Below are positions 4,291 through 58,472 of a DNA stretch of 64,000 bases, piece by piece (the stretch's first letter is position 1; every line of letters begins with the position of its first letter). The notes below the pieces were generated by a model that was not told the origin of the DNA, did no database searches, and saw only the letters and a program-made list of their open reading frames with translations. The stretch spans positions 55,871 to 119,870 of IMG/VR virus record IMGVR_UViG_3300011399_000002, one strand, 5' to 3'. Source of the DNA: a virus (Duplodnaviria; Heunggongvirae; Uroviricota; Caudoviricetes). A program made the position numbers and the translations under genes.

Positions 4291-4516
4291 TTTGGCACGC
4301 TGCGTAGTATGCGAGCGAGTTACTAGTGGTTCGCTAGAGTTTTGTAGAAAGCACTATAACGATTTCAAGGACGACATTGCTGATAAGAAGCCTTGGGTCC
4401 GTGTATTAAAGAATGAATCCCAAAGAGAGCGAAGACGAAACAATAAAGAGTACGATAACACATCATTAGATGCAATCATTGACGGAGAATATATGTCTTA
4501 CCGGGATCGCTATTAA
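4283..4516 (+). CDS. hypothetical zinc-ribbon protein
   Basis: CVVC...FCRKH motif, 77 aa. Confidence 0.3.
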   Translation: MVNLARCVVCERVTSGSLEFCRKHYNDFKDDIADKKPWVRVLKNESQRERRRNNKEYDNTSLDAIIDGEYMSYRDRY

Positions 4517-4533
4517 GAAGGGGAGATATTTAG

Positions 4534-17489: not shown

Positions 17490-17565
17490 GGCCCCTTAGC
17501 TCAATGGTTAGAGCATTTGTCTTATACACAAACGGTTCTAGGTTCGAATCCTAGAGGGGCTACCA
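17490..17565 (+). tRNA. tRNA-Ile (anticodon UAU)
   Basis: Manual cloverleaf: acceptor GGCCCCT/AGGGGCT, D GCTC/GAGC, anticodon stem TTTGT/ACAAA loop CTTATAC, T-arm CTAGG-TTCGAAT-CCTAG, encoded CCA. Confidence 0.7.
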
Positions 17566-17873: not shown

Positions 17874-18271
17874 AATTCAAAGTCTCTGATATCAATGATG
17901 ACGATCCTGAGATTTGGGTAAGTGTATTCGGGCGCAAGATAAAGACTGCTGCCGATGCATTTGAATTTCTCTATGAGCATCCAAACGCTTATGATCACGA
18001 TGATCAAAATGAATGGGATAAACTCACACTAAAGGATCGCTGGTCTGAGTCTCATGGTCAATTCATTGAACACATGACTCTTAGTGTAAGTAAAAAGGGT
18101 GTTTGGCTAGAGACTGGTCCTATCTATTGGGAAGATCAATTCCCTGATATGTACAAGCCTAGATGGCACACCAATATGCACGATATCCGTCTTGATGTTG
18201 GTGCAAAGACCTTTGAGAAGGCTCTCATTAAACTGGCAAAGAAAGTGAGAAAGTATTACGGTGACTATTAA
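17870..18271 (+). CDS. hypothetical protein
   Basis: 133-aa ORF, ATGA overlap. Confidence 0.45.
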   Translation: MKFKVSDINDDDPEIWVSVFGRKIKTAADAFEFLYEHPNAYDHDDQNEWDKLTLKDRWSESHGQFIEHMTLSVSKKGVWLETGPIYWEDQFPDMYKPRWHTNMHDIRLDVGAKTFEKALIKLAKKVRKYYGDY

Positions 18272-18962
18272 ATATTACAAAGTCGGTGGCGCAGTAAGAG
18301 ATGAAATCCTTGGTGTTAGGTCCAAGGATATTGATTTCGCAGTCGAGGCAGATAGTTACGAGGAAATGCGTGACGATCTTCTCAGTAAGGGCTCAATCAT
18401 TTGGCAGGAGCGCCCTGAATTCTTTGCAATCAGGGCTAAGCATCCAGATTTTGGCCCGGTAGATTTTACCCTATGCAGAAAGGAAGGGTTCTACTCCGAT
18501 AATAGGCATCCCGATAGCGTTGAGATTGGTACGATCTATGATGATCTTGCCCGTCGTGACTTTACAGTCAATGCTATTGCTCTGGATTTTACTGAGACTT
18601 CCTCAACAACATTGATTGATCCTCATGGTGGCGTAATCGACATTTCTAAGAATTTGCTTAGGTGTGTTGGTTCTCCTGAGGAAAGATTTACTGAGGACCC
18701 TCTAAGAATTCTACGTGCAGTTAGATTTCATATTGTGCGCGGGTTTGATCTGGACTTTGATCTAGAGGTAAGTCTTAGTTCTTTCCCTCTAATTGATGGC
18801 TTGAAGAAAATCCCTCTAGAGAGAATTTACGAGGAACTAAACAAGTGCTTTGCTCATGATACTTGGAACACGCTAATGTTCCTTGATAAGCATGAGTACC
18901 TGAAAGATGTAATCTTCCTAGAAATGGGTCTGAAACTGGCCCCAAGAATTAATGGTGACTAA
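18261..18962 (+). CDS. tRNA nucleotidyltransferase (CCA-adding enzyme) head-domain protein
   Basis: Class II polymerase-beta NTase signature GGAVRDEILGVRSKDIDFAV at N-terminus, RDFTVNA; 233 aa. Confidence 0.7.
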   Translation: MTIKYYKVGGAVRDEILGVRSKDIDFAVEADSYEEMRDDLLSKGSIIWQERPEFFAIRAKHPDFGPVDFTLCRKEGFYSDNRHPDSVEIGTIYDDLARRDFTVNAIALDFTETSSTTLIDPHGGVIDISKNLLRCVGSPEERFTEDPLRILRAVRFHIVRGFDLDFDLEVSLSSFPLIDGLKKIPLERIYEELNKCFAHDTWNTLMFLDKHEYLKDVIFLEMGLKLAPRINGD

Positions 18963-20666: not shown

Positions 20667-21203
20667 ATGGAAGACCTTCATATCGTTAGGTATTGCGCAG
20701 AGGAGTGCGTTAGGCAGGGAAAGTCTGATCCTATGTCTACGTATGATATGTGTAATGCTTGGGATTACGCTCAGAAGATTAGTCAGCATTGTGTGAATTG
20801 TCTGCCATTTGCAGAGCCGCATGATGTGAAGTACGAGAAGATTAATCTGGATTTTATCGAGCATCTTGGTTCTCTGGTTGAGCCTAAGATGAATAAGAAG
20901 GGATTTCGTACTATCCCAATTGGTATCCGTAGTGGATATGGTTGGATTGAGAAGGCCGCTTGGGAAAGGGTTCCTGAGTTGCTTACTGAACTTATTGCAG
21001 CATACTACGAGGACAGGCTGATGAATATGCAGACCAATCCTCTTAGTAAGAATGCTAATGATGAGTTCTATTTTCACTATGAGGAAATCCATCCATTTCG
21101 GGATGGAAATGGTAGAACTGGAAAGATTTTGTACAATTATCTGAATGGTACGCTAGACAATCCTATCATGCCTCCGAATTTTTGGGGAAGTAGTAATCCC
21201 TGA
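20667..21203 (+). CDS. Fic/Doc family protein
   Basis: Fic core HPFRDGNGRTGK. Confidence 0.7.
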   Translation: MEDLHIVRYCAEECVRQGKSDPMSTYDMCNAWDYAQKISQHCVNCLPFAEPHDVKYEKINLDFIEHLGSLVEPKMNKKGFRTIPIGIRSGYGWIEKAAWERVPELLTELIAAYYEDRLMNMQTNPLSKNANDEFYFHYEEIHPFRDGNGRTGKILYNYLNGTLDNPIMPPNFWGSSNP

Positions 21204-28228: not shown

Positions 28229-28431
28229 GTGCATACTATGAACTCATTAGAACTGAGTTTATCAACTTTGAGTATTCAGGTGAGAGTATTCAAGTTTGTC
28301 TAAATTGTGGTATAGAGATACAGGATGGTGAACGTATTCTAAGAGAAGTATTTAGAGTTATGGGGCATGATGATCATCTAGTATCTCTATGGCATATTCC
28401 TTGTTGGTATAGTGTGGAGACTGTAGAGTGA
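28225..28431 (+). CDS. hypothetical protein
   Basis: 68 aa, ATGA overlap. Confidence 0.4.
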   Translation: MSAYYELIRTEFINFEYSGESIQVCLNCGIEIQDGERILREVFRVMGHDDHLVSLWHIPCWYSVETVE

Positions 28432-29090
28432 AAGAATATCACAAGATTGACTCAGTATATAAGAGAGATGAAAGAGGAAAGTTTCTACTTGGTGAATTCT
28501 CTCGTCCTGAGTTTGAGTATCTAAAAGACCTTCCTTGGCTATGGACAGAGAAGATTGATGGTACTAATATCAGGGTAATGTGGAAGCCTGATGCTGCTTT
28601 TCCTGATGAGCCCTATATTAGTTTTGGAGGTAAGACTGAAAATGCTCAAATTCCCACTAAACTATATAGCCATCTAGCAACAACGTTTGCTCCATTGATG
28701 AATCAACTAATTGATACATTTGGAGAGACAGAAGTTTGTCTTTATGGTGAGGGATATGGAGCAGGAATTCAGAAGGGTGGAGGAAACTACTCTCCTGATC
28801 AAAAATTCATTCTCTTTGATGTAAAGATCGGAGATTGGTGGTTGACTAGGGAGAACGTAGAGGATATTGGGCGTAAGTTAAATATTCCTGTTGTACAACT
28901 AGGTCCACGCTATACTCTTTCTGAGATGATTGAGTATGTTGAACAAACTGCTAGGCTTCTAGAAGGAGCCCCATTTTCTAATATTGGAACAGCAAAAATT
29001 GAGGGTTGGGTAGGAACACCTGCTATTCCTCTATTTGCACGTAATGGTGATCGTATTATTACCAAGGTTAAGTATAGGGACTTTAAGTAA
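28428..29090 (+). CDS. RNA ligase-like nucleotidyltransferase (Rnl2-type)
   Basis: Motif I WTEKIDGTNIRV (KxDGxN), downstream YGEGYGAGIQKGG; size of an Rnl2 adenylyltransferase domain. Confidence 0.55.
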   Translation: MKEYHKIDSVYKRDERGKFLLGEFSRPEFEYLKDLPWLWTEKIDGTNIRVMWKPDAAFPDEPYISFGGKTENAQIPTKLYSHLATTFAPLMNQLIDTFGETEVCLYGEGYGAGIQKGGGNYSPDQKFILFDVKIGDWWLTRENVEDIGRKLNIPVVQLGPRYTLSEMIEYVEQTARLLEGAPFSNIGTAKIEGWVGTPAIPLFARNGDRIITKVKYRDFK

Positions 29091-36315: not shown

Positions 36316-36969
36316 TCAGATTTCATATTTCTCTGTCTCCCACACGATCACTCTCTGTGTAACATTGTGCCTTTCTTTGCCCTCGCCCTTTTCTACCCTG
36401 TCTTCTCCTTCCATGTAGTACCAAGTATTTAGTTTCCAAGGAAGTTTAGTGTTGTTGAAATGTTCTTGTAGGATGGCTGGGGTGAATCCTGTTTTGTGGT
36501 ACTCACCCTCATGCTTTTGATGACCATAAATGATCGCCATATCCCATTTGGTAGTCTGATGCTCCAGCCACCAACGACAGGCCCATTCCAGATCGGGCAC
36601 AACGACCTGCAAGCGGCCACCACGCCTCAGTAATCGGTGCCACTCCCTTAGGGTCGGCACGACTTCAAACCTGCCTACGTGTTCAAGGGCATTCGATGAG
36701 AAGATTGCTTCTACACTACCATCGGGTAGCGGAATATCCCACATCGTTGCTTTGATATCAGCGTTTGTGTGCAAGTCTACTGCTGTAAACTTATCATCAG
36801 AGGATAAGCCACCCGCACCTATATCAAGCATTAGTGGTTGCTTGAATTGAGATGGGTCTAATGTCTTGTGTACAGGTTCAGGGTTTCCATCACTTCCTAT
36901 ATGATAACCGGGGTTGTATTTTGGATCACAGCAATCCTCACAGGTTATGTATCTAGGCTTATCAGCCAT
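36316..36969 (-). CDS. class I SAM-dependent methyltransferase
   Basis: Motif I LMLDIGAGG, motif post-I AVDLHTN, LRRGGRLQVVVPD. Confidence 0.65.
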   Translation of the reverse strand: MADKPRYITCEDCCDPKYNPGYHIGSDGNPEPVHKTLDPSQFKQPLMLDIGAGGLSSDDKFTAVDLHTNADIKATMWDIPLPDGSVEAIFSSNALEHVGRFEVVPTLREWHRLLRRGGRLQVVVPDLEWACRWWLEHQTTKWDMAIIYGHQKHEGEYHKTGFTPAILQEHFNNTKLPWKLNTWYYMEGEDRVEKGEGKERHNVTQRVIVWETEKYEI

Positions 36970-37478
36970 GCCTCAAACTCCTTATTGAAGAGGACTTCTT
37001 CATGACGATTCTTGCGCAGTAAGTGTATGGCATCACGGGCAGTCATTCCCTGCTTCATCAGCGTTCGAACAACAACAAGTGAAGAGCGGTTCATCCCCGC
37101 CTGACAGTGTACCAAAACGTCAAGATTAAGGTCAAGTGCTGCCTTTACCATATCAGAGGCTTCTTCTACGGCTTCTACATTGACATTTGGGCCATCGTAT
37201 AGCCGATATTCCTGTAGGATTGTTCCTGCGGTCGTTTTATAGCGCCCCCAAGGGTAAAGTGACACTACAAGATCGAAGTTATCCCCAAGGTGCAGATTCT
37301 CCACGTATCCTCCATGCCAGAGATTTCCTCTTACATGGGTGATGATTGGAACCGTCGTTGATCGATCACTATTCTCATAATAGAACGTAATGTAGTGATT
37401 AAACGGGTCAGCACCATCTGGTGCGATCCATCCCTCCGTTTTATTGACTGTATTCTCGCCTTGATCTAGTTTAGGCAT
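36945..37478 (-). CDS. CX5R phosphatase (PTP/dual-specificity family)
   Basis: Signature VLVHCQAGMNRSSLVV (HCxxGxxRS P-loop). Confidence 0.6.
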   Translation of the reverse strand: MPKLDQGENTVNKTEGWIAPDGADPFNHYITFYYENSDRSTTVPIITHVRGNLWHGGYVENLHLGDNFDLVVSLYPWGRYKTTAGTILQEYRLYDGPNVNVEAVEEASDMVKAALDLNLDVLVHCQAGMNRSSLVVVRTLMKQGMTARDAIHLLRKNRHEEVLFNKEFEAWLISLDT

Positions 37479-38319
37479 GGGCTTTCTCCCTTATTGCATC
37501 CATCTTTGCTCTCCACTCCGTTGATCGGTCTGTTTTGATATCTTTTAATGGAACGATAACTAACTTTTCATAGCCCCGGTTATTGTCTATGATCGAGTCT
37601 GTTGTCATTACCCAATTGATGTACGTACTGCCTGAGAAAATCTTACCCTCAAATATTGTATTCTCACAGTGGGCGACAACCAGTACGATATTCCTAAAGC
37701 CTAGATCGTGCAGTTTCTCAGCGGCTAGAACGAACGTTCCACCCTTTGAACACAAGTCATCAACAATGATGACCGTATCGCTGGTCTTATTGCCTAGAAT
37801 CTCCAAACTAAGGATTCTACCTGTCGCAAAATCACGCTTTTTGAACCCAACTAGCGAATCAGGCGATTCTAGGCTTTCATAGCGCTTCTGTGCCCCAGCA
37901 TCGGGGAAAAATATCTGCGAACCCGGAAGATGCAGATATTCCTTGAAAAGATGCTCTGTTACGTTCACAACTTGGCATTTGTTGAGAAGGGCAGGAGTTA
38001 CGTCGGAATGAGGCTCGTAAACGACGACCTTGTTCCACTCCATCAAATTGATCAATTTCGTGATCGATTTGAGCGTGAAAATATACTCATCTGAATTACG
38101 ATCCATACGCGAGTAAGGAAAGTAAGTGATGTGTAAATCGGCTGGGAACCAAAGAGCCTTCCTGACTAGAAAAAGTCGGAGTAAATCTTCGTCCCCCTCG
38201 TACTTTAGCGTTACCTTATTTATTGCTTGTTTATGTTCAGAAAAGAAGGGTTTTGGTATATTTACCTCCCCATTGGGGAAATGACCGAATTTTATCTCTT
38301 GATCGTTGAATAGGATCAT
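37471..38319 (-). CDS. ribose-phosphate pyrophosphokinase (PRPP synthetase)-like protein
   Basis: PRTase-type motif VIIVDDLCSKGGTF and Prs N-domain; 282 aa. Confidence 0.75.
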   Translation of the reverse strand: MILFNDQEIKFGHFPNGEVNIPKPFFSEHKQAINKVTLKYEGDEDLLRLFLVRKALWFPADLHITYFPYSRMDRNSDEYIFTLKSITKLINLMEWNKVVVYEPHSDVTPALLNKCQVVNVTEHLFKEYLHLPGSQIFFPDAGAQKRYESLESPDSLVGFKKRDFATGRILSLEILGNKTSDTVIIVDDLCSKGGTFVLAAEKLHDLGFRNIVLVVAHCENTIFEGKIFSGSTYINWVMTTDSIIDNNRGYEKLVIVPLKDIKTDRSTEWRAKMDAIREKAHA

Positions 38320-39800
38320 ATCCGAGCCCTAATTTCCGCTAGTGTGTCTTCACGAACGAGTTTACCGTCAACAAAGAGGTCTTGTAGCAGATCATCCTCT
38401 ACTGCATCGCGCTCTACTTCGGTTAGCCCATCGCGGAAGCCAATTCCCCAAGGGGTCTTCCAAACAGTTACCATGCCTGTTTGGGACTTCTTGATGCCAT
38501 TGTCAGTGATAGGGTCTTTGAATAGGAATTTCTCTTCGCCCGCAATACGAGCGTATGTTGACTTTAGAGCAAAGGAGAAGGTATCGCGTGTGTTGTACTG
38601 ATAGGTGAAGCTACCAATACCGTATACCATGTTCGTTGATGCGAAGCCTTTTGTCTCTAATTGACGGCAAATCTCATCACAACGCTCTAGAGTAATGGCA
38701 TCACCGTAAATAACACCGATATGTGGGTCCAATTCCTTGTAACCCTTCTCATTGACCGTGCCGCCGAAGATATCCCAAAGGATTTCAACAACACCACGAA
38801 CAGCGTCAGGGTTGTCAGAAAGGGGATCGCCACAGATGATCTTGATAGGATCGCCTGAATCTGGTCGAATAACAACCTTACCATCGCGGGCAAGAATGTC
38901 AGGCTTTAGTGTGGCAATTACCCCATTTAGGACTTTCCACAGGTCCCAAGTGTCAGAAACGATGGAAACGTACCCGTTTGGATACACATTTGTTATAATG
39001 TTACGATAAGAGTCTAATTCGTTCTGTCCATATGCGCACATAACAGAATGCTCTGTGGCAGGGATGGAAGTACCGACTAACTCTTCTTCGATATTTGCCC
39101 CATAGAATTCCTCTAGGAACAGGATACCGGGAATAGAGTCGGTACCAACGAATGAGAGCAGGTGTCCTGCTGCACTGTACTTTGCAGTTTGCAGGGAACC
39201 CATTCCACGCATTGAGAAATCATGGCCTTGGAACGGGACAAAATCCTTTGATCCACCAGTCTTAAAAGCCCAGCCCAAAAGAAGGCTCTTAAAACGCTTT
39301 GCCAGTGTCGCACTTGTGCACATTTGCCAAAGCGAACACGACATAAGCGTTTCTATGTAGTTTGTAACCCAAAAGAATTCAGGAAGTGTGTTCTCAACAG
39401 TGAGAAGAGGAGTACGAATTTTAACGCTGGTTCCTTCGGGTACTGCCTTAATTCTGAGGGGCAGGTACCCTAACCTGTGGAGTGCTGCAATGTGATCAGA
39501 GTAAGGCTCTTCAACACCTAACGTTGATCGTATAACCCGCTCATACTCTTCAAGAACGTCCCTTTCAGGACGAGAGAAGAAGTTGTCATTAAAGTAGTCA
39601 ATTAGGTACTCTTTTACAAAGGCTTGGAAGCCGAAGGCAACAACAGAGTCTATATTGGGAATTCGTGAAGCCCTTGGTGTCCAAGTAGAGTATACCTTCT
39701 CTGTACCTTGCGGATATTGCTCCCTGTGTGAAACCTTGTAAAAATCACACAGCAAGGTTGCTGGGTATATATACTTCTCAGTTGTTCTTTGTAGCGTCAT
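38316..39800 (-). CDS. nicotinamide phosphoribosyltransferase (NAMPT/NadV)-like protein
   Basis: 494 aa, NAPRTase-family size and conserved blocks (GSKDFVPFQGHDFSMRGM, PDSGDP). Confidence 0.7.
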   Translation of the reverse strand: MTLQRTTEKYIYPATLLCDFYKVSHREQYPQGTEKVYSTWTPRASRIPNIDSVVAFGFQAFVKEYLIDYFNDNFFSRPERDVLEEYERVIRSTLGVEEPYSDHIAALHRLGYLPLRIKAVPEGTSVKIRTPLLTVENTLPEFFWVTNYIETLMSCSLWQMCTSATLAKRFKSLLLGWAFKTGGSKDFVPFQGHDFSMRGMGSLQTAKYSAAGHLLSFVGTDSIPGILFLEEFYGANIEEELVGTSIPATEHSVMCAYGQNELDSYRNIITNVYPNGYVSIVSDTWDLWKVLNGVIATLKPDILARDGKVVIRPDSGDPIKIICGDPLSDNPDAVRGVVEILWDIFGGTVNEKGYKELDPHIGVIYGDAITLERCDEICRQLETKGFASTNMVYGIGSFTYQYNTRDTFSFALKSTYARIAGEEKFLFKDPITDNGIKKSQTGMVTVWKTPWGIGFRDGLTEVERDAVEDDLLQDLFVDGKLVREDTLAEIRARI

Positions 39801-40126
39801 CGCTTCACCTTCCTTAGTGCTTCATCTGCTTGATTGATTACTGATTCTGATGTGGGGCCATAAAAAGCCAGACCCATTGCCCAAGGCCACTGTATATTGC
39901 TATCGTCTTCAAAATGCTCTAAGGCTGGAGTAGCCTCTAGGGAGTAACGTTCCTCAGGATTTGCAGTAGCAGCCCTGTAAAGGAATAGGTCAGTAAACTC
40001 AGGAAACCGGGGCGCAAGGTCATCAATAGTCAAAGATACTGACTCTTCACCCGTTATATACACCTTTATAACTTCATCACTCACAGTTTTAATTTCTCTA
40101 GTGTATCCATTACAGACTTTGCACAC
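39797..40126 (-). CDS. hypothetical protein
   Basis: 109 aa, ATGA overlap. Confidence 0.4.
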   Translation of the reverse strand: MCKVCNGYTREIKTVSDEVIKVYITGEESVSLTIDDLAPRFPEFTDLFLYRAATANPEERYSLEATPALEHFEDDSNIQWPWAMGLAFYGPTSESVINQADEALRKVKR

Positions 40127-40341
40127 TACTTTACCCCTACTTCGCTTAGACAGTAGACACCGACTTTTACTTCTGCCACCCCTGAACTTCTAACTTCGAT
40201 ACAATCGGGCGCAAAGGTCCAAGGATAGGCTACAACAGAAGTAGGGGGTGGTCTAAAAAACGTAAGTAGCGCAAGCACAATAAAAATAATAACCCCAACG
40301 AGTATAACTACTAGGCAACCCCACAGGCCATCGTCACTCAT
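40126..40341 (-). CDS. small membrane protein
   Basis: LWGCLVVILVGVIIFIVLALLTFF TM helix. Confidence 0.35.
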   Translation of the reverse strand: MSDDGLWGCLVVILVGVIIFIVLALLTFFRPPPTSVVAYPWTFAPDCIEVRSSGVAEVKVGVYCLSEVGVK

Positions 40342-41390
40342 ATATACTCATTTACTCTTGTATGATTCTCAGAGGCAGTTGATGGACTTATACGTATGAA
40401 CTCAGCCCTATCACGTAATTCGGATAAGTTTTCTGCTCCGACGTAAGACATTCCACTTCGTAAGCCTCCCATAAGTTGTTTAAGTACCGCCGATACTGGT
40501 CCTTTGTAATCCACGAATCCAGATATGCCCTCCCTAGTAAAGAGTGCATCATTTGTACCAAATATAGACTGTCCTTGATAACGCTTGACTCTTCGTCCAC
40601 GTCCAGTATCAATAACCTCTCCGGGGGCTTCGTCAGTCCCGGCCAAAAGACTACCTAGCATTACAAGGTCAGCACCGGCTGCTAATGCTTTTACGATATC
40701 TCCTGCGCTTCTTATGCCTCCATCCGCGATAATAGGTATATGGTACTTTCTAGACTCCTGATAGCATTCCGCAATAGCAGATAGTTGCGGTACTCCGATC
40801 CCTGTAACAATTCTTGTTGTGCAGACTGATCCCGGTCCAATTCCGATTTTAATAGCATCCGCTCCTGCTGCAATAAGGTCAACTGTGCCTTCTGCTGTTG
40901 CAACATTACCAGCAACCACTCTGGCTGATGGGAAAAGGTCTTTAACTCTTTTGACAAGATCAATTACCTTTCTATGGTGTCCATGTGCTACATCAACGCA
41001 GACAATATAGGGGGCAAGATTACAGGAACCATCTATATGCCTGATAAAGTCTAGGCTTTCTTTCTGATCCCTTGTACCAACAGAGAATGCTACAGGGTAG
41101 CCCTCTGAGTAAAGGGTCTTAATATCACCTATTTGATCTGCTGGGGGCATGAAACGATTTAATATTCCTAAACCCCCTGCGTTGTGCATGGCGATTGCCA
41201 TTTCACGGCCAGTAACAAAATCCATGTTAGCACTGATGACAGGAATGGACAGATTCAGTCCTAAAAAGTCCTGAGACAGATCGATATCCTGTCTTGACTC
41301 TATTTCTGAATATGCTGGACGTATGAGTACATCATCGAATGTGAAGTAATCTTTCAATTCTAAATCCCTTCTGTTTTTGCATCCATGCAA
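40338..41390 (-). CDS. GMP reductase / IMP dehydrogenase-family enzyme (no CBS insert)
   Basis: Catalytic loop [14 protein letters not shown], 350 aa like GuaC. Confidence 0.75.
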
Positions 41391-50099: not shown

Positions 50100-50174
50100 G
50101 GCTCCGAACCTAAACGGACAAGGGTCTGTCTGCAAAACAGATTTTAGTGGGTTCGACTCCCACCGGAGTCTCCA
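50100..50174 (+). tRNA. tRNA-Cys (anticodon GCA)
   Basis: 75 nt, acceptor GGCTCCG/CGGAGTC, anticodon stem TCTGT/ACAGA loop CTGCAAA, T-arm GTGGG-TTCGACT-CCCAC, discriminator U, CCA. Confidence 0.65.
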
Positions 50175-50407: not shown

Positions 50408-51937
50408 ATGGCAAGATTAAACGCAACTAAGCGAACAAGGGTTACAGAAACATTAGCAGAGGAAACTACAACTAACCTAGCAGGTGGGAAGGCTTTTAAG
50501 TTAACTCCCCATGCAAAGTTAATTGAACAGGTTGTAGGTGCGTTCTGGAACGAGGATTTGTACTACGCTAAGGGCTCTAAGACTTCCGCACAGATTGTGC
50601 AGGGTGTTAAGGACGTAGCAAAGGATGATCCTAGATTCCCACTACAGCTAGCAGCATACGCTAGAAACGTTCTCTATCTGCGAACAACCCCACAGGTTTT
50701 GCTTGTGGAAGCATCACGTATTGAAGCGTGCAAGCCATTCGTTCGTGAATATACTTCAAAGATTGTAAAGCGAGCAGACGAATTAACTGATATCGTTGCT
50801 TACTACACTTCTACATCAGGCTCACACAAGGGCTTCCCTAACTCTCTAAAGAGAGGACTGGCTGATGCATTCGTGAAGTTTGATGAATACCAGTTAAATA
50901 AGTATGACTCTTCAAAGTCAGTTGTAACACTTGGTCAGGTAGCACAGTTAGTGCACCCAGCGTTGGGTAAGGCTATGTACAACTTCCTCACAAAGGATGA
51001 AGTTGATGCAGAGGCTCTTCCTAAGATTGGGGCTCTAAAGGCTCTATTGGCTAAGGATAAGATTGATGCAGAGGCTATCGAGTTAATCGGTAAGTCAAAT
51101 GTAACTTGGGAAACCCTTATCTCAAAGTTTGGGGCATCCAAGGAAACTTGGGAATTAGTAATTCCTAATATGGGTTATATGGCACTTCTTAGAAACCTAA
51201 GAAACTTCGAACAGAAGGGTGTCAATCTAACTCCTGTATTAGCACGGATTGCAAATCCTGAGGAAGTAAAGCGCTCAAAGCAACTTCCATATCGGTTCTA
51301 TTCTGCTTACCTACAGGTATCAGAACAGAAGGTGCAGCGTGCAATCGCTCAGGCGTTTGAACACAGCATTTCAAATGTCCGACTTGAAGGTCGTACAGCC
51401 GTTATGGTAGACTTGTCTGGAAGCATGGGATCAGCACTATCGGATAAGTCAGCAATGTCCTATCGAAACGTGGGTACCGTGCTTGGAGCCATCGTTGTAA
51501 AGAAGTCAGAGGAATCTGTAGCAATTGGTTTCGGTGATACCGCGCAGATTGCAAAGATCAACCCTGATGACACAATGATGACAAATATTGATAAGATTGA
51601 TAAGTTACCAGTGGGTCACTCAACTAATGCCTATCGAGGCTTCCAAGTCTTGGGCAACAGAGTAGTTGATCGTGTGGTAGTTATCTCTGATATGCAGTGC
51701 TACGGTGGTAACGAATACTACGGTAGTGGCCTATCAAACGCTTGGGATGAATACGTGAAGAACGTAAATCCAAATGCAAGACTCTACTCGCTAGATGTTA
51801 GCGCATATGGATCAAAGCAATTCCCAAGCAGAAAGAACAACGTTGTAACTCTTAACGGCTGGTCAGACAAGATCATCGATATGATTGGTGTCTACGAACG
51901 TGAAGGTGCAATGCTTGATGAGGTTAGAAAGTGGTAG
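50408..51937 (+). CDS. rsr: Ro60 ortholog Rsr (TROVE domain + vWA domain)
   Basis: N-terminal NLAGGKAFKL...VVGAFWNEDLYY matches the Rsr/Ro60 signature (NPAGG...GSxxGTYY), C-terminal vWA with MIDAS VMVDLSGSMGS; 509 aa. Confidence 0.75.
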   Translation: MARLNATKRTRVTETLAEETTTNLAGGKAFKLTPHAKLIEQVVGAFWNEDLYYAKGSKTSAQIVQGVKDVAKDDPRFPLQLAAYARNVLYLRTTPQVLLVEASRIEACKPFVREYTSKIVKRADELTDIVAYYTSTSGSHKGFPNSLKRGLADAFVKFDEYQLNKYDSSKSVVTLGQVAQLVHPALGKAMYNFLTKDEVDAEALPKIGALKALLAKDKIDAEAIELIGKSNVTWETLISKFGASKETWELVIPNMGYMALLRNLRNFEQKGVNLTPVLARIANPEEVKRSKQLPYRFYSAYLQVSEQKVQRAIAQAFEHSISNVRLEGRTAVMVDLSGSMGSALSDKSAMSYRNVGTVLGAIVVKKSEESVAIGFGDTAQIAKINPDDTMMTNIDKIDKLPVGHSTNAYRGFQVLGNRVVDRVVVISDMQCYGGNEYYGSGLSNAWDEYVKNVNPNARLYSLDVSAYGSKQFPSRKNNVVTLNGWSDKIIDMIGVYEREGAMLDEVRKW

Positions 51938-52075
51938 AAATCATAGTCCTTGTCCTGCTCTTCGGAATAGGAACGTTCTTGATCGGATTTGGGTTTGGTC
52001 GTTGGGGGTTGGAAACAACTATCGATGACCAACAGGCCCAAATCGAAGCACTTACTGGCGATCAAAATATATCTT

Positions 52076-52135
52076 AGTAGTGTAGTTTACGGTTACTTCT
52101 TTGCTTGAAACGAAATTAACACCGTACACGTTTTA
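52076..52135 (+). ncRNA. conserved-motif hairpin (element A of TAGTGTAG family)
   Basis: TAGTGTAGtttACGGTTACTTC...; TACGGTTA/TAACaCCGTA stem; 17 nt upstream of tRNA-Glu. Confidence 0.3.
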
Positions 52136-52151
52136 ATCTCTAGGATTTAAT

Positions 52152-52226
52152 GGCCCTATCGTCTATCGGATAGGACACCAGACTTTCAATCTGATAAGCG
52201 GGGTTCGACTCCCCGTAGGGCTACCA
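52152..52226 (+). tRNA. tRNA-Glu (anticodon UUC)
   Basis: Acceptor GGCCCTA/TAGGGCT, loop CTTTCAA, T-arm CGGGG-TTCGACT-CCCCG, CCA. Confidence 0.65.
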
Positions 52227-52237
52227 AAGACAACTTA

Positions 52238-52390
52238 ATAATAGTCTAGTGTCGGAAACGGTTACTTCTACAAACTTTTTGTTTCACTAACAAACCATCT
52301 AGTCCGGGTAATGCGGATCAGGTTGTGTGCGAAGCATGATTGACTCTAAGGAAAGGACTTAGTGACGAATCGGAAGTAAGACGATAAAGC
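52238..52390 (+). ncRNA. element B of TAGTGTAG family (candidate Y-RNA-like RNA)
   Basis: CTAGTGTCggaaACGGTTACTTC; GTTACTTC can pair with GGAAGTAAG ~110 nt downstream; no ORF. Confidence 0.3.
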
Positions 52391-52557
52391 CTCCGTTCCA
52401 TTTAATCTGACTATTACAATCTTTGCCCATTCAGTAGCAATGGACGCCAAACAAGCAGTCACCGGGCCATGTGGACTATACTGGTAGGGATATGGCTGTT
52501 GAGGTAGGAATGGTCCACCATGTTTATTGCTACCGAATGCGCAAAGCGCAGAATTTA

Positions 52558-52700
52558 GGATAGTGTAGATAACAGTTACTTCTCTTTGGGCGACGTGATG
52601 TGGGTTCGAATCCTACTCTCCCAACAAAATCGATGGGAGATAGCTTAATGGTAAAGCGCGAAAATTTCTGTAGTCGCTTTAATCTTCCTAAAATAGTCAT
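52558..52700 (+). ncRNA. element C: Y-RNA-like RNA with tRNA-like module
   Basis: TAGTGTAGataACAGTTACTTC, then T-arm GTGGG-TTCGAAT-CCTAC, 7-bp loop-capped helix TCTCCCA/TGGGAGA, then D-arm GCTT-AATGGTA-AAGC. Confidence 0.4.
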
Positions 52701-52795
52701 CGCTCACCCAGTAGACGAATTCATACAAGGCAGAACGTAAGGGTTGCAACCGCCCGCCTATGAAATGGTCTACCGGATGCGCGACGGCGCATCAA

Positions 52796-52915
52796 TCTTT
52801 AGTGTAGTGTTTGTTACGGTTCCTTCGATAAATGTATATCAATTGACTTCAAATCAATCTTTGTAGGTTCAAGTCCTACAGGAATAATGTCCGTAGCGCC
52901 TCTATCCTCACTAAT
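52796..52915 (+). ncRNA. element D: Y-RNA-like RNA enclosing a tRNA-like cloverleaf (anticodon-position UCA)
   Basis: TTAGTGTAG pairs with CTA(tcct)CACTAA ~95 nt downstream; enclosed 52818-52887 folds as acceptor GGTTCCT/AGGAATA, D GATA/TATC, ATTGA-CTTCAAA-TCAAT, T-arm GTAGG-TTCAAGT-CCTAC, no CCA. Confidence 0.4.
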
Positions 52916-52922
52916 ATATCGC

Positions 52923-52999
52923 TCTCCTATGGTGTAACTAGGTAAGCATACCTGTCTGTTAAACAGTTGGTATAGGTTCGAATCCTGTTGGGAGAGCCA
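52923..52999 (+). tRNA. tRNA-Asn (anticodon GUU), tentative
   Basis: Acceptor TCTCCTA/TGGGAGA, loop CTGTTAA, T-arm ATAGG-TTCGAAT-CCTGT, CCA; U1-A72 start unusual. Confidence 0.5.
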
Positions 53000-53004
53000 A
53001 CTTT

Positions 53005-53202
53005 TTGAGGTGTTATATGGCAAACTTCAAGCGCAAGCACCCTAAGCACAGAATCCTACGGGATTGCAATGCTCATTGTAAATACGATGGAAGTCACTAT
53101 ACTAGTATAAATGGTAGGGAAAGATACCTACCGATGTATTGGAAGAAGGTGGGTGGAAGACACGCTTGGAGATACCTACATAAGAACGTAGACATTCGCT
53201 GA
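53005..53202 (+). CDS. hypothetical basic protein
   Basis: 65 aa, His/Lys/Arg-rich, between two tRNAs. Confidence 0.3.
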   Translation: MRCYMANFKRKHPKHRILRDCNAHCKYDGSHYTSINGRERYLPMYWKKVGGRHAWRYLHKNVDIR

Positions 53203-53273
53203 GGATTGGTGTAACGGCAGCACCGGAGATTTTGGTCCTCCTAGAAAGGGTTCGAATCCCTTATCCTCTGCCA
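53200..53273 (+). tRNA. tRNA, probably Gln (anticodon UUG)
   Basis: D-arm GGTG-TAACGGCAG-CACC, T-arm AAGGG-TTCGAAT-CCCTT, acceptor TGAGGAT/ATCCTCT, CCA; anticodon arm imperfect. Confidence 0.5.
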
Positions 53274-53381
53274 ACTTAGGAGATTAAATGCAGCACCAGA
53301 TCATTCGTGTCCTCAATGTACTTGGACTATACCGTTGTACTTGTGGGGCAACAGGCGATCTATCATGGGTAGCAGAACACG

Positions 53382-53981
53382 TTGTTAAGAATCAGTACGA
53401 GGTTAAACCTAATGTCCCTAGAGGAGAGTAGATTTACACCAGCAAGAGATTGGTGTATGCATCCTGAATATTGGCATTCTCCTGACTCAGAGGCTACCGA
53501 AATGGAAGTCACTGGGTTTTTAGGTGCTTTAGTGACAATGATACAGCCAGAGTATGTTGTTGAAACAGGAACATATCACGGGCATACGGCAGCAGCAATA
53601 GGTGCGGCACTTTATGTAAACGGTCATGGACGCTTGGTAAGCATTGAGAATAATGGTGAGCATTATGAGGAAGCTTTACATACTTTGGATGGATGGAATT
53701 ATCCAGTCAAACTCGTTCATGGCAATACGATGGATTTTGTCCCCGAACAAAACATCGATTTTGCTTTCTTTGATTCTTGGCAGGAAGGACGTATAGAAGA
53801 GTATACACGATTCTATTCTCTAGGTTTTTTGAAACCCGGAGCAATCGTAGCCTTCCATGATACCGCACCACATCATCAGGTACGAAAGACTATTCTACCC
53901 TTAGAAGGAATTGGTGAGGGCGAGTTAAGGATCATTGATTTCCGAACACCGCGAGGACTAATTTTGGGGCAAGTAAGATGA
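53382..53981 (+). CDS. class I SAM-dependent O-methyltransferase (family 3-like)
   Basis: VVETGTYHGHTAAAIGAAL motif I, FFDSW motif like catechol-type O-MTases. Confidence 0.6.
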   Translation: MLRISTRLNLMSLEESRFTPARDWCMHPEYWHSPDSEATEMEVTGFLGALVTMIQPEYVVETGTYHGHTAAAIGAALYVNGHGRLVSIENNGEHYEEALHTLDGWNYPVKLVHGNTMDFVPEQNIDFAFFDSWQEGRIEEYTRFYSLGFLKPGAIVAFHDTAPHHQVRKTILPLEGIGEGELRIIDFRTPRGLILGQVR

Positions 53982-58395: not shown

Positions 58396-58472
58396 GGCCC
58401 ACGATTCATCTGGTCGAGGAAGACGTTCTTATAAAGCGTTTGAGCAGAGTCCGATTCTCTGGTGGGCTACCA
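58396..58472 (+). tRNA. tRNA-Ile (anticodon UAU), second copy of this anticodon
   Basis: Acceptor GGCCCAC/GTGGGCT, anticodon stem ACGTT/AGCGT loop CTTATAA, T-arm CAGAG-TCCGATT-CTCTG, CCA. Confidence 0.55.

What the first reader, a model, noticed from the sequence alone, without database searches (positions are those of the whole stretch)
52558..52700. Element C: tRNA parts in permuted order (T-arm, loop-capped acceptor-like helix, then D-arm)
After the TAGTGTAG...ACAGTTACTTC motif comes a standard T-arm (GTGGG-TTCGAAT-CCTAC). Next is a perfect 7-bp helix TCTCCCA/TGGGAGA closed by a 10-nt loop. Next is a D-arm GCTT-AATGGTA-AAGC with the conserved GG. No anticodon arm follows. A normal tRNA gene cannot have its 3-prime acceptor strand before its 5-prime strand with a loop joining them. 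A Y-RNA tRNA-like domain (capped acceptor stem; anticodon stem replaced by the Ro-binding stem) or a circularly permuted tRNA precursor would look like this.
Basis: seen in the sequence. Interest (0 to 1): 0.6.

Follow-up and report, generated by a model that had tools for sequence, protein, structure and literature searches.

The report
Phage Y RNA with tRNA-like domain
The odd "shuffled tRNA" is a small non-coding Y RNA that sits just after a phage gene for the Ro60 RNA-binding protein; this kind of tRNA-mimicking partner RNA is already known, so it is a correct catch but not a new kind of thing.

Summary
At 52600-52657 (+) there is a T arm, a loop-capped 7-bp acceptor-like helix and a D arm, in that order.

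The whole element is a 139-nt RNA, 52554-52692. Its 5' and 3' ends pair into a two-part stem. The TAGTG...GTTACTTC motif is the 5' strand of that stem.

It lies 617 nt downstream of a Ro60/TROVE gene (50408-51937) on the same strand, inside a tRNA cluster of a phage-like contig of about 120 kb.

Across 27 relatives, 94.7% of cells in 29 pairs are paired (58% when shuffled), and 28 pairs show compensatory changes. A model built from them scores the window copy at 113.6 bits. It also hits phages where YrlA Y RNAs were already reported: CcrColossus and a Bxz1-like mycobacteriophage.

A scan of IMG/VR with the motif alone kept 80 loci. Of these, 38 carry Ro60, always on the same strand.

Verdict: a YrlA-type Y RNA, a new member of a known kind. 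It lacks the GNCGAA motif and scores below Rfam's threshold (27 versus 69 bits).

Three more RNAs in the window (A, B, D) use the same scaffold with different inserts.

Ro60 binding and function are inferred, not shown.

The parts
50408..51937 (+). Ro60/Rsr orthologue (509 aa), the presumed protein partner
   Evidence: Pfam TROVE 1.5e-35 and vWA_Ro60 2.1e-07. Closest solved structure is Thermus phage phiLo Ro60, 9KOP/9L5Y, E 2.2e-32.
52554..52692 (+). Complete YrlA-type Y RNA (element C), 139 nt
   Evidence: Family model R1 hit 52554-52691, 113.6 bits, E 8e-26. Segment parse. Covariation.
52554..52560 (+). Outer stem, 5' strand TTTAGGA; pairs with 52686-52692
   Evidence: 7/7 pairs. Outer helix is 94.2% paired over 27 sequences, and all 7 pairs have changes on both sides.
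52561..52567 (+). Conserved internal-loop motif TAGTGTA. It occupies the place of the GNCGAAN0-1G motif of classical YrlA and is the presumed Ro60 contact.
   Evidence: Repeated 4 times in the window and conserved in relatives. Positional equivalence comes from the Rfam YrlA consensus and Mycobacterium phage ScottMcG. Ro60 contact is inferred.
52568..52575 (+). Middle stem, 5' strand GATAACAG; pairs with 52668-52675
   Evidence: 7/8 pairs. Recovered by RNAalifold on a plain MAFFT alignment. 89.7% paired, and all 8 pairs have changes on both sides.
52576..52582 (+). TTAC-TTC. TTAC is the conserved YUAY/UA 'kink' motif of YrlA. TTC starts the V hairpin.
   Evidence: UUAC in 18 and AUAC in 6 of 27 relatives. 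These columns are invariant or nearly so in A2. YUAY is defined in PMC4201824.
52580..52599 (+). V region plus variable loop (TTCTCTTTGGGCGACGTGAT). The hairpin is degenerate here. The last base, T52599, is position 48.
   Evidence: In distant relatives this region is a 5-bp stem, a 7-nt loop and a 5-nt AGGUC loop.
52600..52616 (+). T arm GTGGG/TTCGAAT/CCTAC
   Evidence: 100% paired in 27 sequences, and 4 of 5 pairs have changes on both sides.
52617..52640 (+). Acceptor-like stem (AS): 7 bp TCTCCCA/TGGGAGA capped by the 10-nt loop ACAAAATCGA
   Evidence: The AS helix is 98.5% paired and all 5 counted pairs have changes on both sides. AS lengths in relatives are 5-9 bp, mostly 7-8.
52641..52657 (+). 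UA linker (positions 8-9) and D arm GCTT/AATGGTA/AAGC, with GG and A15
   Evidence: UA linker in 21/27, GG in 25/27, and 15:48 is A:U or G:C in 20/27.
52658..52667 (+). A-rich 3' strand of the inner internal loop, GCGAAAATTT
52668..52675 (+). Middle stem, 3' strand CTGTAGTC
52676..52685 (+). Pyrimidine-rich 3' strand of the outer internal loop, GCTTTAATCT (the repeated TTTAATCT)
   Evidence: Direct repeats D2 and D6. Conserved ...TTCT just before the outer stem in relatives.
52686..52692 (+). Outer stem, 3' strand TCCTAAA
52071..52146 (+). Paralogous scaffold RNA A. Same outer and middle stems and motifs, with a small hairpin insert and no tRNA-like domain (YrlB-like).
   Evidence: R1 hit 52071-52145, 31.6 bits. 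MFE fold shows outer AUCUUAG/CUAGGAU and the middle stem.
52239..52416 (+). Paralogous scaffold RNA B. Same scaffold with an insert of about 125 nt of unknown kind.
   Evidence: Motif copy. MFE fold shows outer UAAUAGUC/GACUAUUA, the middle stem, and GUUACUUC paired with GGAAGUAA. No comparative test was done.
52799..52914 (+). Paralogous scaffold RNA D. Same scaffold carrying a cloverleaf in normal order; ARAGORN calls it tRNA-SeC(tca) at 52818-52887.
   Evidence: tRNA model 49.1 bits; MFE z = -2.8; the 5-bp UUCCU/AGGAA helix stacks on the middle stem.
18261..18962 (+). Phage-encoded tRNA nucleotidyltransferase (CCA-adding family). Possible co-factor; context only.
   Evidence: PolyA_pol 8e-24; phrog_2244 2.1e-49.
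28428..29090 (+). Phage-encoded RNA ligase; context only.
   Evidence: PF09414 2.6e-11; phrog_548 2.1e-19.

Best explanation
Element C (52554-52692, + strand) is a YrlA-type Y RNA. It is a non-coding RNA of about 139 nt made to partner the Ro60 protein encoded just upstream.

Shown:
- Its two ends pair into a long stem made of an outer 7-bp helix and a middle 8-bp helix.
- These helices are separated by conserved internal loops: 5' UAGUGUA opposite GCUUUAAUCU, and 5' UUAC opposite GCGAAAAUUU.
- The distal end of the stem opens into a tRNA-like module in circularly permuted order: V/variable region, T arm, loop-capped acceptor stem, UA, D arm.
- The nucleotides that build the tRNA elbow are present.

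Inferred from the known family:
- Ro60 binds the conserved 5'-strand motifs of the stem.
- The tRNA-shaped module folds into an L shape and recruits one or more tRNA-binding factors. Alternatively, as in other Ro60 RNPs, the RNA tethers Ro60 to an exoribonuclease such as host PNPase and gates access to the Ro60 ring.
- The RNA is probably made by co-transcription with Ro60 and the flanking tRNAs, followed by processing.
[quoted passage not shown] The phage's own CCA-adding enzyme might do this. Most relatives cap this stem with stable tetraloops, so the closed form is probably the working form.
- In the phage, the RNP most likely serves RNA or tRNA quality control or repair, or redirects host RNA decay during infection.
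For: Ro60 gene next door:
- A TROVE + vWA_Ro60 ORF at 50408-51937 lies on the same strand, 617 nt upstream. Its nearest solved relative is a phage Ro60 that binds Y-like RNAs (PMC12135203).

Match to the known family:
- Rfam YrlA aligns to T, AS and D (27 bits, E 0.0034).

Structure support:
- RNAalifold on a plain MAFFT alignment of 27 relatives recovers the middle stem, T, AS and D. 22 of 23 pairs have compensatory changes.
- On the curated alignment, 29 pairs are 94.7% paired against 58.1% when shuffled (0 of 500 shuffles reach it) and 41-49% when the 3' partner is slid. 28 of 29 pairs show changes on both sides.
- On the CM alignment of 150 hits, pairing is 93.1% against 56.9%.
- tRNA tertiary signature: 15:48 is A:U in 10 and G:C in 10 of 27; UA linker in 21/27; GG in 25/27; YUAY in 24/27.

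Same family as published phage YrlAs:
- Family model R1 scores the window copy at 113.6 bits. It also hits Caulobacter phage CcrColossus (five tandem copies, 63-93 bits), Mycobacterium phage ScottMcG (65 bits), Arthrobacter phage Atuin (108 bits) and Gordonia phage Rabbitrun (65 bits), in each case beside Ro.

Ro linkage independent of how loci were chosen:
- The 22-nt motif alone retrieved 80 IMG/VR loci. 38 of them carry a Ro homologue, all 38 on the same strand and 36 within 1.3 kb. Only 285 of 50,697 phage records have any Ro match.

Transcription:
- No sigma-70-like promoter on the + strand upstream of or between the elements; the one + strand match lies downstream, at 53076-53103.
- No ORF of at least 80 aa and no called gene between 51938 and 53287.
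Against: - No expression, RNA-end or binding data exist for this sequence. Ro60 binding and every functional step are inferred by homology.
- The defining GNCGAAN0-1G motif of YrlA is absent from the 5' part of all 27 family members examined.
- The Rfam score is far below the gathering threshold (27 versus 69 bits).
- The single-sequence MFE fold of the window copy is not better than shuffles (z = -1.3 to -1.4). It also picks a different pairing for the flanks, so the stem model rests on comparative evidence.
- The curated alignment (A3) was fitted helix by helix, which inflates pairing percentages for the outer and middle stems.
- The V hairpin is degenerate in the window copy.
Confidence: 0.82

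Rival explanations
1. It is a circularly permuted tRNA gene. The transcript would be circularised or ligated through its paired ends, then opened at the acceptor loop by RNase P and 3' processing. That would yield a normal, decodable tRNA, as in Cyanidioschyzon merolae. The phage's RNA ligase and CCA-adding enzyme could help.
For: - The order is 3' half, acceptor loop, 5' half, with a perfect 7-bp acceptor stem.
- In distant relatives the hairpin before the T arm has anticodon-arm geometry: 5 bp, a 7-nt loop with U at position 2, then a 5-nt AGGUC variable loop.
- The window encodes an RNA ligase and a CCA-adding enzyme.
- The YrlA literature itself notes the resemblance (bioRxiv 10.1101/312249).
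Against: - The window copy has no usable anticodon arm (52580-52599).
- The 'anticodon' triplets differ freely among relatives.
- The paired ends are a conserved 15-bp interrupted stem with sequence-conserved loops shared with the non-tRNA inserts A and B. They are not a bulge-helix-bulge splice site.
- Acceptor caps are often UUCG or GAAA tetraloops, and only 2 of 27 begin with N-CCA.
- The link to Ro60 has no role in this model.
- No bacterial enzyme for such circularisation is known (established knowledge).
Confidence: 0.04
2. It is a dead remnant of two neighbouring tRNA genes: the T arm and 3' acceptor strand of one, a spacer, then the 5' acceptor strand and D arm of the next. It has no function of its own.
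For: - It sits in a tRNA cluster, with tRNA-Glu, tRNA-Asn and tRNA-Gln within 600 nt.
- Chen et al. 2014 warn that dimeric tRNAs can mimic YrlA in searches, and a dimeric-tRNA origin of YrlA has been proposed (PMC4201824; bioRxiv 10.1101/312249).
Against: - The two acceptor strands pair with each other 7/7 and covary across relatives. Strands from two different tRNAs would not.
- The flanks form covarying helices.
- The element is conserved at 60-118 bits in loci whose Ro60 proteins share only 25-68% identity with the window's.
- No tRNA parts lie upstream of the V region or downstream of the D arm.
Confidence: 0.03
3. It is a tRNA decoy or processing cassette that works without Ro60. For example, it could act as a sponge for a host tRNA-targeting nuclease or modification enzyme. 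Alternatively, the shared stem could be an RNase III/E-type processing signal that releases embedded RNAs from the polycistronic tRNA transcript.
For: - The same scaffold flanks four different inserts between real tRNAs.
- No internal promoters, so processing from a long transcript is needed.
- tRNA-like modules are plausible decoys, and the phage carries tRNA-repair enzymes.
Against: - The scaffold motif is tightly and directionally linked to Ro60 genes across very divergent phages: 38 of 80 motif-only loci, all on the same strand, mostly within 1.3 kb. A general processing signal should be spread over tRNA clusters without Ro60.
- The conserved parts are single-stranded loop sequences on the 5' strand, as in known Ro60 sites (PMC4201824).
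Confidence: 0.08

Closest known systems
YrlA RNAs of bacteria (Salmonella Typhimurium, Mycobacterium smegmatis; Rfam RF02553; Chen et al. 2014, PMC4201824; structure PDB 6CU1, bioRxiv 10.1101/312249)
   Same: - Encoded next to Ro60 on the same strand.
- A long stem formed by the paired ends, with internal loops.
- A module in the order V, T arm, closed acceptor stem, UA, D arm.
- Conserved elbow nucleotides, a 15:48 Levitt pair and the YUAY/UA motif.
- A 7-bp acceptor stem, as in M. smegmatis YrlA, which RNase P cleaves.
   Different: - No GNCGAAN0-1G motif; GGAUAGUGUA occupies that place.
- The strongly conserved GUUACUUC is not part of the published definition.
- No 4-bp 'anticodon-stem' helix closes the junction as it does in the Rfam consensus.
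- Scores 27 bits against a gathering score of 69.
Phage YrlA RNAs reported by Chen et al. 2014 (mycobacteriophages, Caulobacter phage CcrColossus, Bacillus phage G) and unannotated copies in Arthrobacter phage Atuin and Gordonia phage Rabbitrun
   Same: - Hit by the same family model R1 (63-108 bits) beside Ro60.
- Same scaffold, UUAC/AUAC-UUC motif and tRNA-like module.
- Multiple tandem copies (five in CcrColossus).
- They also fall below Rfam's threshold (31-42 bits).
   Different: - The loop motif differs by lineage: ScottMcG GGCCGAGAG, Atuin CCGAAGCGCA, window GGAUAGUGUA.
- The window's Ro60 is at most 32% identical to any Ro60 in the phage collection.
Thermus phage phiLo Yrl1/Yrl2 with phiLo Ro60 (PMC12135203; PDB 9KOP, 9L5Y)
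   Same: - The closest solved Ro60 (E 2e-32).
- Phage-encoded Y-like RNAs beside Ro60, shown to bind it and to form complexes with host PNPase.
   Different: phiLo Yrls were picked by a CGAA motif and a stem-bulge-stem shape. No tRNA-like domain is described in that paper. They lie upstream of Ro60.
Deinococcus radiodurans Yrn1 and metazoan Y RNAs (Rfam RF00019)
   Same: - A modular Ro60-binding stem plus an effector loop.
- Yrn1 has T-arm-like and anticodon-arm-like parts in normal order, like window element D.
   Different: - Element C has the permuted YrlA order.
- The GGUCCGA/UUGACU bulged helix is absent.
- No RF00019 match even at E <= 10.
Circularly permuted tRNA genes (Cyanidioschyzon merolae; some archaea)
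   Same: The 3' half comes before the 5' half. The acceptor ends are joined by a loop and the termini are paired.
   Different: Those mature into working tRNAs through a bulge-helix-bulge splice site and a eukaryotic or archaeal endonuclease. Here the anticodon arm is degenerate, the termini form a conserved Ro-linked scaffold, and the host is bacterial or phage.

Membership tests
YrlA-type Y RNA (Chen et al. 2014; Rfam RF02553) | Encoded within about 4 kb of a Ro60/TROVE gene, on the same strand | tested here: met
   Ro60 ORF at 50408-51937 (+), TROVE 1.5e-35. The RNA starts at 52554, 617 nt downstream.
YrlA-type Y RNA (Chen et al. 2014; Rfam RF02553) | Near-invariant T stem-loop with a tRNA-type loop (UUCRANY) | tested here: met
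   GTGGG/TTCGAAT/CCTAC at 52600-16. 100% paired in 27 relatives.
YrlA-type Y RNA (Chen et al. 2014; Rfam RF02553) | Closed acceptor-like stem-loop (AS) between the T and D arms | tested here: met
   7 bp plus a 10-nt loop at 52617-40. All 5 counted pairs covary, 98.5% paired.
YrlA-type Y RNA (Chen et al. 2014; Rfam RF02553) | UA linker and D stem-loop with conserved GG | tested here: met
   TA at 52641-42; GCTT/AATGGTA/AAGC at 52643-57. UA in 21/27 and GG in 25/27 relatives.
YrlA-type Y RNA (Chen et al. 2014; Rfam RF02553) | Levitt-type 15:48 pair (G:C or A:U) and a pyrimidine at the last variable-loop position | tested here: met
   A52648: T52599. In the family: A:U 10, G:C 10, other 7 of 27.
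YrlA-type Y RNA (Chen et al. 2014; Rfam RF02553) | Conserved YUAY (UA kink) before the V region | tested here: met
   TTAC at 52576-79. UUAC 18 and AUAC 6 of 27. It aligns with CUAc of the Rfam consensus.
YrlA-type Y RNA (Chen et al. 2014; Rfam RF02553) | Long stem formed by the paired 5' and 3' ends | tested here: met
   Outer 7-bp and middle 8-bp helices, 94% and 90% paired, with all 15 pairs changing on both sides. The middle helix is also found by RNAalifold on a plain MAFFT alignment.
YrlA-type Y RNA (Chen et al. 2014; Rfam RF02553) | GNCGAAN0-1G motif near the 5' end (proposed Ro60 contact) | tested here: not met
   Absent from the 5' part of the window copy and of all 27 relatives. The equivalent position reads GGATAGTGTA. 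CGAA occurs only on the 3' side, at 52659-62.
YrlA-type Y RNA (Chen et al. 2014; Rfam RF02553) | Score at or above Rfam's gathering threshold (69 bits) | tested here: not met
   27 bits, model positions 27-81 only. None of 20 related loci reaches it. Published phage YrlA loci also fall short, at 42.3 and 36.1 bits.
YrlA-type Y RNA (Chen et al. 2014; Rfam RF02553) | Physically bound by Ro60; carries tRNA-type modifications (pseudouridine 55, dihydrouridine) | not testable with these tools
   Needs RIP/EMSA and modification mapping.
Circularly permuted tRNA gene | All tRNA parts present, including a functional anticodon arm, so that processing yields a decodable tRNA | tested here: not met
   The region before the T arm (52580-99) cannot form a 5-bp/7-nt anticodon arm. 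Nothing anticodon-like follows the D arm.
Circularly permuted tRNA gene | Termini form a bulge-helix-bulge (3-4-3) splice motif | tested here: not met
   The termini form 7-bp and 8-bp helices with 7/10-nt and 4/10-nt internal loops.
Canonical tRNA gene | Cloverleaf in normal order, recognised by tRNA finders | tested here: not met
   No ARAGORN call and no Rfam tRNA match over 52554-52692, even at E <= 10.
Metazoan/Deinococcus-type Y RNA (RF00019, Yrn1) | GGUCCGA / UUGACU bulged Ro-binding helix | tested here: not met
   No such sequence in 52554-52692. No RF00019 match at E <= 10.

The most novel reading that the evidence does not exclude
The four RNAs at 52071-52914 would form a modular Y-RNA array. 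One conserved Ro60-binding scaffold (UAGUG loop plus GUUACUUC) would present interchangeable effector modules:
- a bare hairpin (A);
- an unknown domain of about 125 nt (B);
- a permuted, YrlA-type tRNA mimic (C);
- a normal-order tRNA mimic that exposes a UCA anticodon loop (D).

The array would work with the phage's own CCA-adding enzyme and RNA ligase as a dedicated tRNA surveillance, repair or anti-defence system. The UAGUG/GUUACUUC motif would be a Ro60 recognition code distinct from GNCGAA that co-evolved with this Ro60 lineage.
Probability: 0.25. Interest if true: 0.6.

Novelty: new member of a known kind. Interest (0 to 1): 0.38.

Why it matters
tRNA-mimicking Y RNAs that partner Ro60 have been known in bacteria and some phages since 2014, so the class is not new. 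Three points have practical value.

- The curated Rfam YrlA model scores every copy tested in this phage and metagenome clade below its threshold. That includes phages where YrlA was originally reported and cultured phages (Atuin, Rabbitrun) whose records leave these RNAs unannotated. A model like R1 would close that annotation gap.
- The clade replaces the proposed GNCGAA Ro60 contact with other conserved motifs. This gives a natural set of variants for testing how Ro60 recognises Y RNA.
- The window offers a compact test system: Ro60, four scaffold RNAs with different inserts, a CCA-adding enzyme and an RNA ligase. It could be used to ask what phage Ro60 RNPs do, which is still unknown.

Tried and rejected
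- **Canonical tRNA, tmRNA or another Rfam family.** Only weak partial matches over the element: YrlA at 27 bits and beta_tmRNA at 10.5 bits.
- **DNA similarity to known phages.** Only the flanking tRNA-Glu matched. No close relative of the window is in the phage collection.
- **Protein-seeded scan of IMG/VR with the single Ro60 sequence.** This gave one distant locus. A scan with the Ro60 alignment against metagenomes was needed to get relatives.
- **The repeated 5' motif as a promoter.** Rejected. The bases upstream of it pair and covary with the 3' end, so they belong to the RNA. No sigma-70-like site accompanies it.
- **Single-sequence folding.** The MFE of the window copy does not beat shuffles and misplaces the flanks. 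It was not used as evidence.
- **First regex scan for the T arm.** It had a wrong loop length and found nothing useful. Fixed.
- **N-CCA at the start of the acceptor loop as a general sign of processing.** Only 2 of 27 relatives have it.
- **Supplementary tables of Chen 2014 and two Wolin-lab reviews.** Not held. I therefore could not check which phage copies were listed there or whether the UACUUC motif had been noted.
Full report
**1. The observation**

- The motif TAGTGTAGATAACAGTTACTTC is at 52561-52582.
- A canonical T arm, GTGGG/TTCGAAT/CCTAC, is at 52600-16.
- A perfect 7-bp helix, TCTCCCA/TGGGAGA, is closed by a 10-nt loop at 52617-40.
- The dinucleotide TA is followed by a D arm, GCTT/AATGGTA/AAGC, at 52643-57.
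- No anticodon arm lies downstream of the D arm.

ARAGORN finds ten tRNAs in the window but none over this stretch. Rfam at its curated thresholds finds only tRNAs. With permissive thresholds on 51800-53400, the one family that aligns here is YrlA (RF02553). It scores 27 bits with E 0.0034, covers model positions 27-81, and aligns exactly the T, acceptor-like and D arms.

**2. Context**

The ORF immediately upstream, 50408-51937 on the same strand, is a Ro60 orthologue. Pfam gives TROVE at 1.5e-35 and vWA_Ro60 at 2.1e-07. Its closest solved relative is the Ro60 of Thermus phage phiLo (9KOP/9L5Y, E 2.2e-32).

The window belongs to a 119,888-bp metagenomic contig. Its gene content looks like a phage:
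- family-A DNA polymerase, primase and class II ribonucleotide reductase;
- a PD-(D/E)XK nuclease, a RuvB-like ATPase, NAMPT and a GMP reductase/IMPDH-family enzyme;
- a tail-spike-like protein;
- eleven tRNAs.

It also encodes a tRNA nucleotidyltransferase (18261-18962) and an RNA ligase (28428-29090).

Between 51938 and 53287 there is no ORF of at least 80 aa and no called gene. There is also no sigma-70-like promoter on the + strand upstream of or between the elements; the only + strand match lies downstream, at 53076-53103.

**3. The full element**

A second short repeat, TTTAATCT, follows three of these copies.

I collected relatives with an alignment of Ro60 proteins. The same layout recurs beside Ro60 in dozens of loci.

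Parsing 27 non-identical copies gives this plan for the window RNA:

| Segment | Sequence | Coordinates |
|---|---|---|
| Outer stem, 5' strand | TTTAGGA | 52554-60 |
| Loop | TAGTGTA | 52561-67 |
| Middle stem, 5' strand | GATAACAG | 52568-75 |
| YUAY motif | TTAC | 52576-79 |
| V/variable region | TTCTCTTTGGGCGACGTGAT | 52580-99 |
| T arm | GTGGG/TTCGAAT/CCTAC | 52600-16 |
| Capped acceptor stem (AS) | TCTCCCA-loop-TGGGAGA | 52617-40 |
| Linker | TA | 52641-42 |
| D arm | GCTT/AATGGTA/AAGC | 52643-57 |
| Inner loop, 3' strand | GCGAAAATTT | 52658-67 |
| Middle stem, 3' strand | CTGTAGTC | 52668-75 |
| Outer loop, 3' strand | GCTTTAATCT | 52676-85 |
| Outer stem, 3' strand | TCCTAAA | 52686-92 |

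It is not a promoter.

**4. Is the structure real?**

- RNAalifold on a plain MAFFT alignment of the 27 sequences (A2) recovers the middle stem and the T, AS and D helices. 22 of 23 pairs show compensatory changes.
- On a curated alignment (A3, padded so that MAFFT kept my columns apart from two rows), 29 pairs in five helices are 94.7% paired. Shuffling gives 58.1%, and 0 of 500 shuffles reach the observed value. Sliding the 3' partner by 1-3 columns gives 41-49%. 28 of 29 pairs change on both sides.
- A covariance model built from A2 (R1) scores the window copy at 113.6 bits, E 8e-26. It also finds many sequences that were not in the seed. The resulting 150-sequence alignment is 93.1% paired against 56.9% when shuffled.

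Three caveats apply. A3 was fitted helix by helix, and the CM alignment is fitted to the model, so both lean towards the structure. The single-sequence MFE of the window copy is unremarkable (z about -1.4) and chooses other pairings for the flanks. The stem model therefore rests on comparative evidence.

**5. Is it linked to Ro60 independently of how I chose the loci?**

I scanned IMG/VR with the RNA motif alone (TAGTGNAGNNNNNNGTTACTTC). A pattern with 15 fixed bases should also give many chance matches in a collection that large; that estimate is my own.
- Of the 80 loci kept, 38 carry a Ro60 homologue within the stored stretch.
- All 38 have Ro60 on the same strand as the motif, and 36 have it within 1.3 kb.
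- 22 of the 80 loci have R1 hits of at least 64 bits.
- For comparison, only 285 of 50,697 phage records have any match to this Ro60.
- The Ro60 proteins in most of these loci are only 25-37% identical to the window's. The RNA motif is therefore conserved across deep Ro60 divergence.

**6. What it is**

The architecture and signature nucleotides are those of YrlA RNAs, as defined by Chen et al. 2014 (PMC4201824) and by the YrlA crystal-structure paper (bioRxiv 10.1101/312249):
- a Ro60-adjacent RNA with a long terminal stem;
- a V region introduced by YUAY (here UUAC);
- a T arm, a closed acceptor stem, a UA linker and a D arm;
- a pyrimidine at the last variable-loop position;
- a Levitt 15:48 pair that switches between G:C and A:U.

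In the window, 15:48 is A52648:T52599. In the family it is A:U in 10, G:C in 10 and other in 7 of 27 copies.

R1 also hits phages in which YrlA was already reported:
- Caulobacter phage CcrColossus has five tandem copies just upstream of Ro60, scoring 63-93 bits.
- The Bxz1-like Mycobacterium phage ScottMcG scores 65 bits.
- Arthrobacter phage Atuin scores 108 and 75 bits, in an unannotated gap right after its Ro gene.
- Gordonia phage Rabbitrun scores 65 bits.

The window element is therefore a new member of a known class.

**7. Where it departs from the definition**

- The GNCGAAN0-1G motif is absent from the 5' part of all 27 family members. By position, the window's GGAUAGUGUA stands where ScottMcG has GGCCGAGAG, Atuin has CCGAAGCGCA and the Rfam consensus has GgCgaAUGCu. 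The motif looks diverged rather than lost.
- GUUACUUC, or AUACUUC, is much more strongly conserved here than the literature describes.
- Rfam's YrlA model reaches only 27 bits against a gathering score of 69. No YrlA hit reached threshold in 20 related loci. It reaches only 31.5-42.3 bits even in CcrColossus, ScottMcG, Atuin and Rabbitrun. The curated model thus scores every copy tested in this clade below threshold.

**8. The V region**

In distant relatives such as L077, L078, L071 and L016, the V region is a 5-bp stem with a 7-nt loop that has U at loop position 2. A 5-nt AGGUC-type loop follows. This is anticodon-arm and variable-loop geometry. There the module is an entire tRNA permuted at position 26/27.

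In the window and its close relatives this hairpin is degenerate. This argues against any decoding role for the window copy.

**9. Mechanism**

Shown:
- the sequence and covarying structure;
- the tRNA-elbow signature;
- the tight, same-strand linkage to Ro60.

Inferred from the family (PMC4201824; 10.1101/312249; PMC12135203):
- Ro60 binds the stem, mainly through the conserved 5'-strand loop motifs.
- The tRNA-shaped module recruits a tRNA-binding factor. Alternatively, the RNA tethers Ro60 to an exoribonuclease such as host PNPase and gates the Ro60 cavity.

More speculative:
- The 7-bp acceptor stem matches the one feature that made M. smegmatis YrlA an RNase P substrate followed by CCA addition, and the phage brings its own CCA-adding enzyme.
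- Against this, many relatives cap the stem with UUCG or GAAA tetraloops, and only 2 of 27 loops start with N-CCA. The closed form is probably the working form.
- The biological role of phage Ro60 RNPs is unknown. The candidates are RNA or tRNA quality control, RNA repair, and hijacking of host RNA decay.

**10. Rivals**

- A permuted tRNA gene that matures into a real tRNA is unlikely. The anticodon arm is degenerate, the scaffold is shared with non-tRNA inserts, and there is no bulge-helix-bulge motif.
- A fossil of two adjacent tRNA genes is contradicted by covariation between the two acceptor strands and in the flanks.
- A Ro-independent decoy or processing cassette is hard to reconcile with the directional Ro60 linkage, although a decoy role for the tRNA-like module within the RNP remains possible.

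**11. Beyond the finding**

The same scaffold occurs three more times in the window.
- A (52071-52146) carries a small hairpin insert and scores 31.6 bits with R1.
- B (52239-52416) carries an insert of about 125 nt in which GUUACUUC pairs with GGAAGUAA.
- D (52799-52914) carries a cloverleaf in normal order that ARAGORN calls tRNA-SeC(tca). Its 'acceptor' is a 5-bp helix stacked on the scaffold's middle stem. This topology resembles Deinococcus Yrn1 rather than YrlA.

The pairing partner of GUUACUUC differs among A-D while its sequence stays the same. This fits recognition by sequence rather than conservation for pairing.

**12. Verdict**

The element is a YrlA-type Y RNA. It is a new member of a known kind, with a variant Ro-site motif. 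It belongs to a clade in which every copy tested scores below the curated model's threshold.

Noticed in passing
window 52799-52914 (+): Element D has the same Y-RNA scaffold as element C. Its insert is a cloverleaf in normal order: a D-like arm, an anticodon arm with loop CUUCAAA (UCA), and a T arm. ARAGORN calls it tRNA-SeC(tca) at 52818-52887 and the Rfam tRNA model gives 49.1 bits. Its 'acceptor' is a 5-bp UUCCU/AGGAA helix stacked on the scaffold's middle stem, and G1/G2 can instead pair into that stem. It may be a Yrn1-like tRNA mimic rather than a real opal-suppressor tRNA.
   Followed up: partly
window 52071-52146 and 52239-52416 (+): Elements A and B are two more RNAs with the same outer and middle stems and the UAGUG / GUUACUUC motifs. 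A carries a small hairpin (YrlB-like). B carries an insert of about 125 nt that matches no Rfam family. Together with C and D they form a four-member array interleaved with tRNA-Glu, tRNA-Asn and tRNA-Gln.
   Followed up: partly
window 52418-52553 and 52693-52797 (+); L008 from 3009: A second repeated element follows B and C. A long hairpin (CCCAGTAG...CTACCGRATG) is followed by a GC-rich hairpin (GCGC-N-GCGC). The second copy is flagged as terminator-like at 52776-52793. A homologue in L008 encloses yet another scaffold-like motif. It has no Rfam match and its function is unknown.
   Followed up: partly
window 18261-18962 (+) and 28428-29090 (+): The phage encodes its own tRNA nucleotidyltransferase (PolyA_pol head domain; phrog_2244) and an RNA ligase (PF09414). 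Together with Ro60, the Y RNAs and 11 tRNAs, this makes an RNA or tRNA repair and maintenance toolkit.
   Followed up: partly
L083 (Arthrobacter phage Atuin, OK040794.2) 4158-4740; L082 (Gordonia phage Rabbitrun) 1766-2168: Cultured, GenBank-deposited phages carry strong members of this RNA family right next to their annotated Ro-like genes: Atuin at 108, 75 and 42 bits, Rabbitrun at 65 bits. No feature is annotated at any Atuin copy. In Rabbitrun the hits overlap small hypothetical-protein CDSs but no RNA gene is annotated.
   Followed up: yes
L204 (Caulobacter phage CcrColossus) 1942-2901: Five tandem family members (63-93 bits) lie directly upstream of the Ro60 gene. One of them overlaps a feature annotated as tRNA-Gln (2119-2186), which may be a mis-annotated Y-RNA module.
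   Followed up: no
L033 1971-2235 (and near-identical L034-L036, L039): A Ro60 locus with Y RNAs and about 20 tRNAs also carries an archaeal-type RNase P RNA (RF00373, 169.5 bits). The locus is either archaeal or a virus or element that carries its own RNase P RNA.
   Followed up: no
L067 755-1158: A tmRNA (RF00023, 76.7 bits) lies next to a Ro60 gene with two YrlA-type RNAs and many tRNAs.
   Followed up: no
window 52616-52626 versus 52986-52996: An 11-nt stretch across the T-arm/acceptor junction and loop of element C (CTCTCCCAACA) is perfectly complementary to the 3' end of the neighbouring tRNA-Asn (TGTTGGGAGAG). My own rough estimate is about 0.3 such matches by chance in this 1.5-kb region, so it may mean nothing.
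   Followed up: no
window 50100-50171 (+): Rfam calls a tRNA here (50.5 bits) that ARAGORN does not report. It lies just upstream of the Ro60 gene.
   Followed up: no
window 17490-17565 and 58396-58472 (+): Two tRNA-Ile genes with anticodon TAT are predicted in the same window, which is an unusual duplication for a phage tRNA set.
   Followed up: no
window 36945-41390 (-) and 20667-21203 (+): Auxiliary metabolism and effector genes: NAMPT (38316-39800), a PRPP-synthetase-like gene (37471-38319), GMP reductase/IMPDH (40338-41390), a dual-specificity phosphatase (36945-37478) and a Fic-domain protein (20667-21203). An NAD-salvage pair also sits near Ro60 in Gordonia phage Rabbitrun.
   Followed up: no
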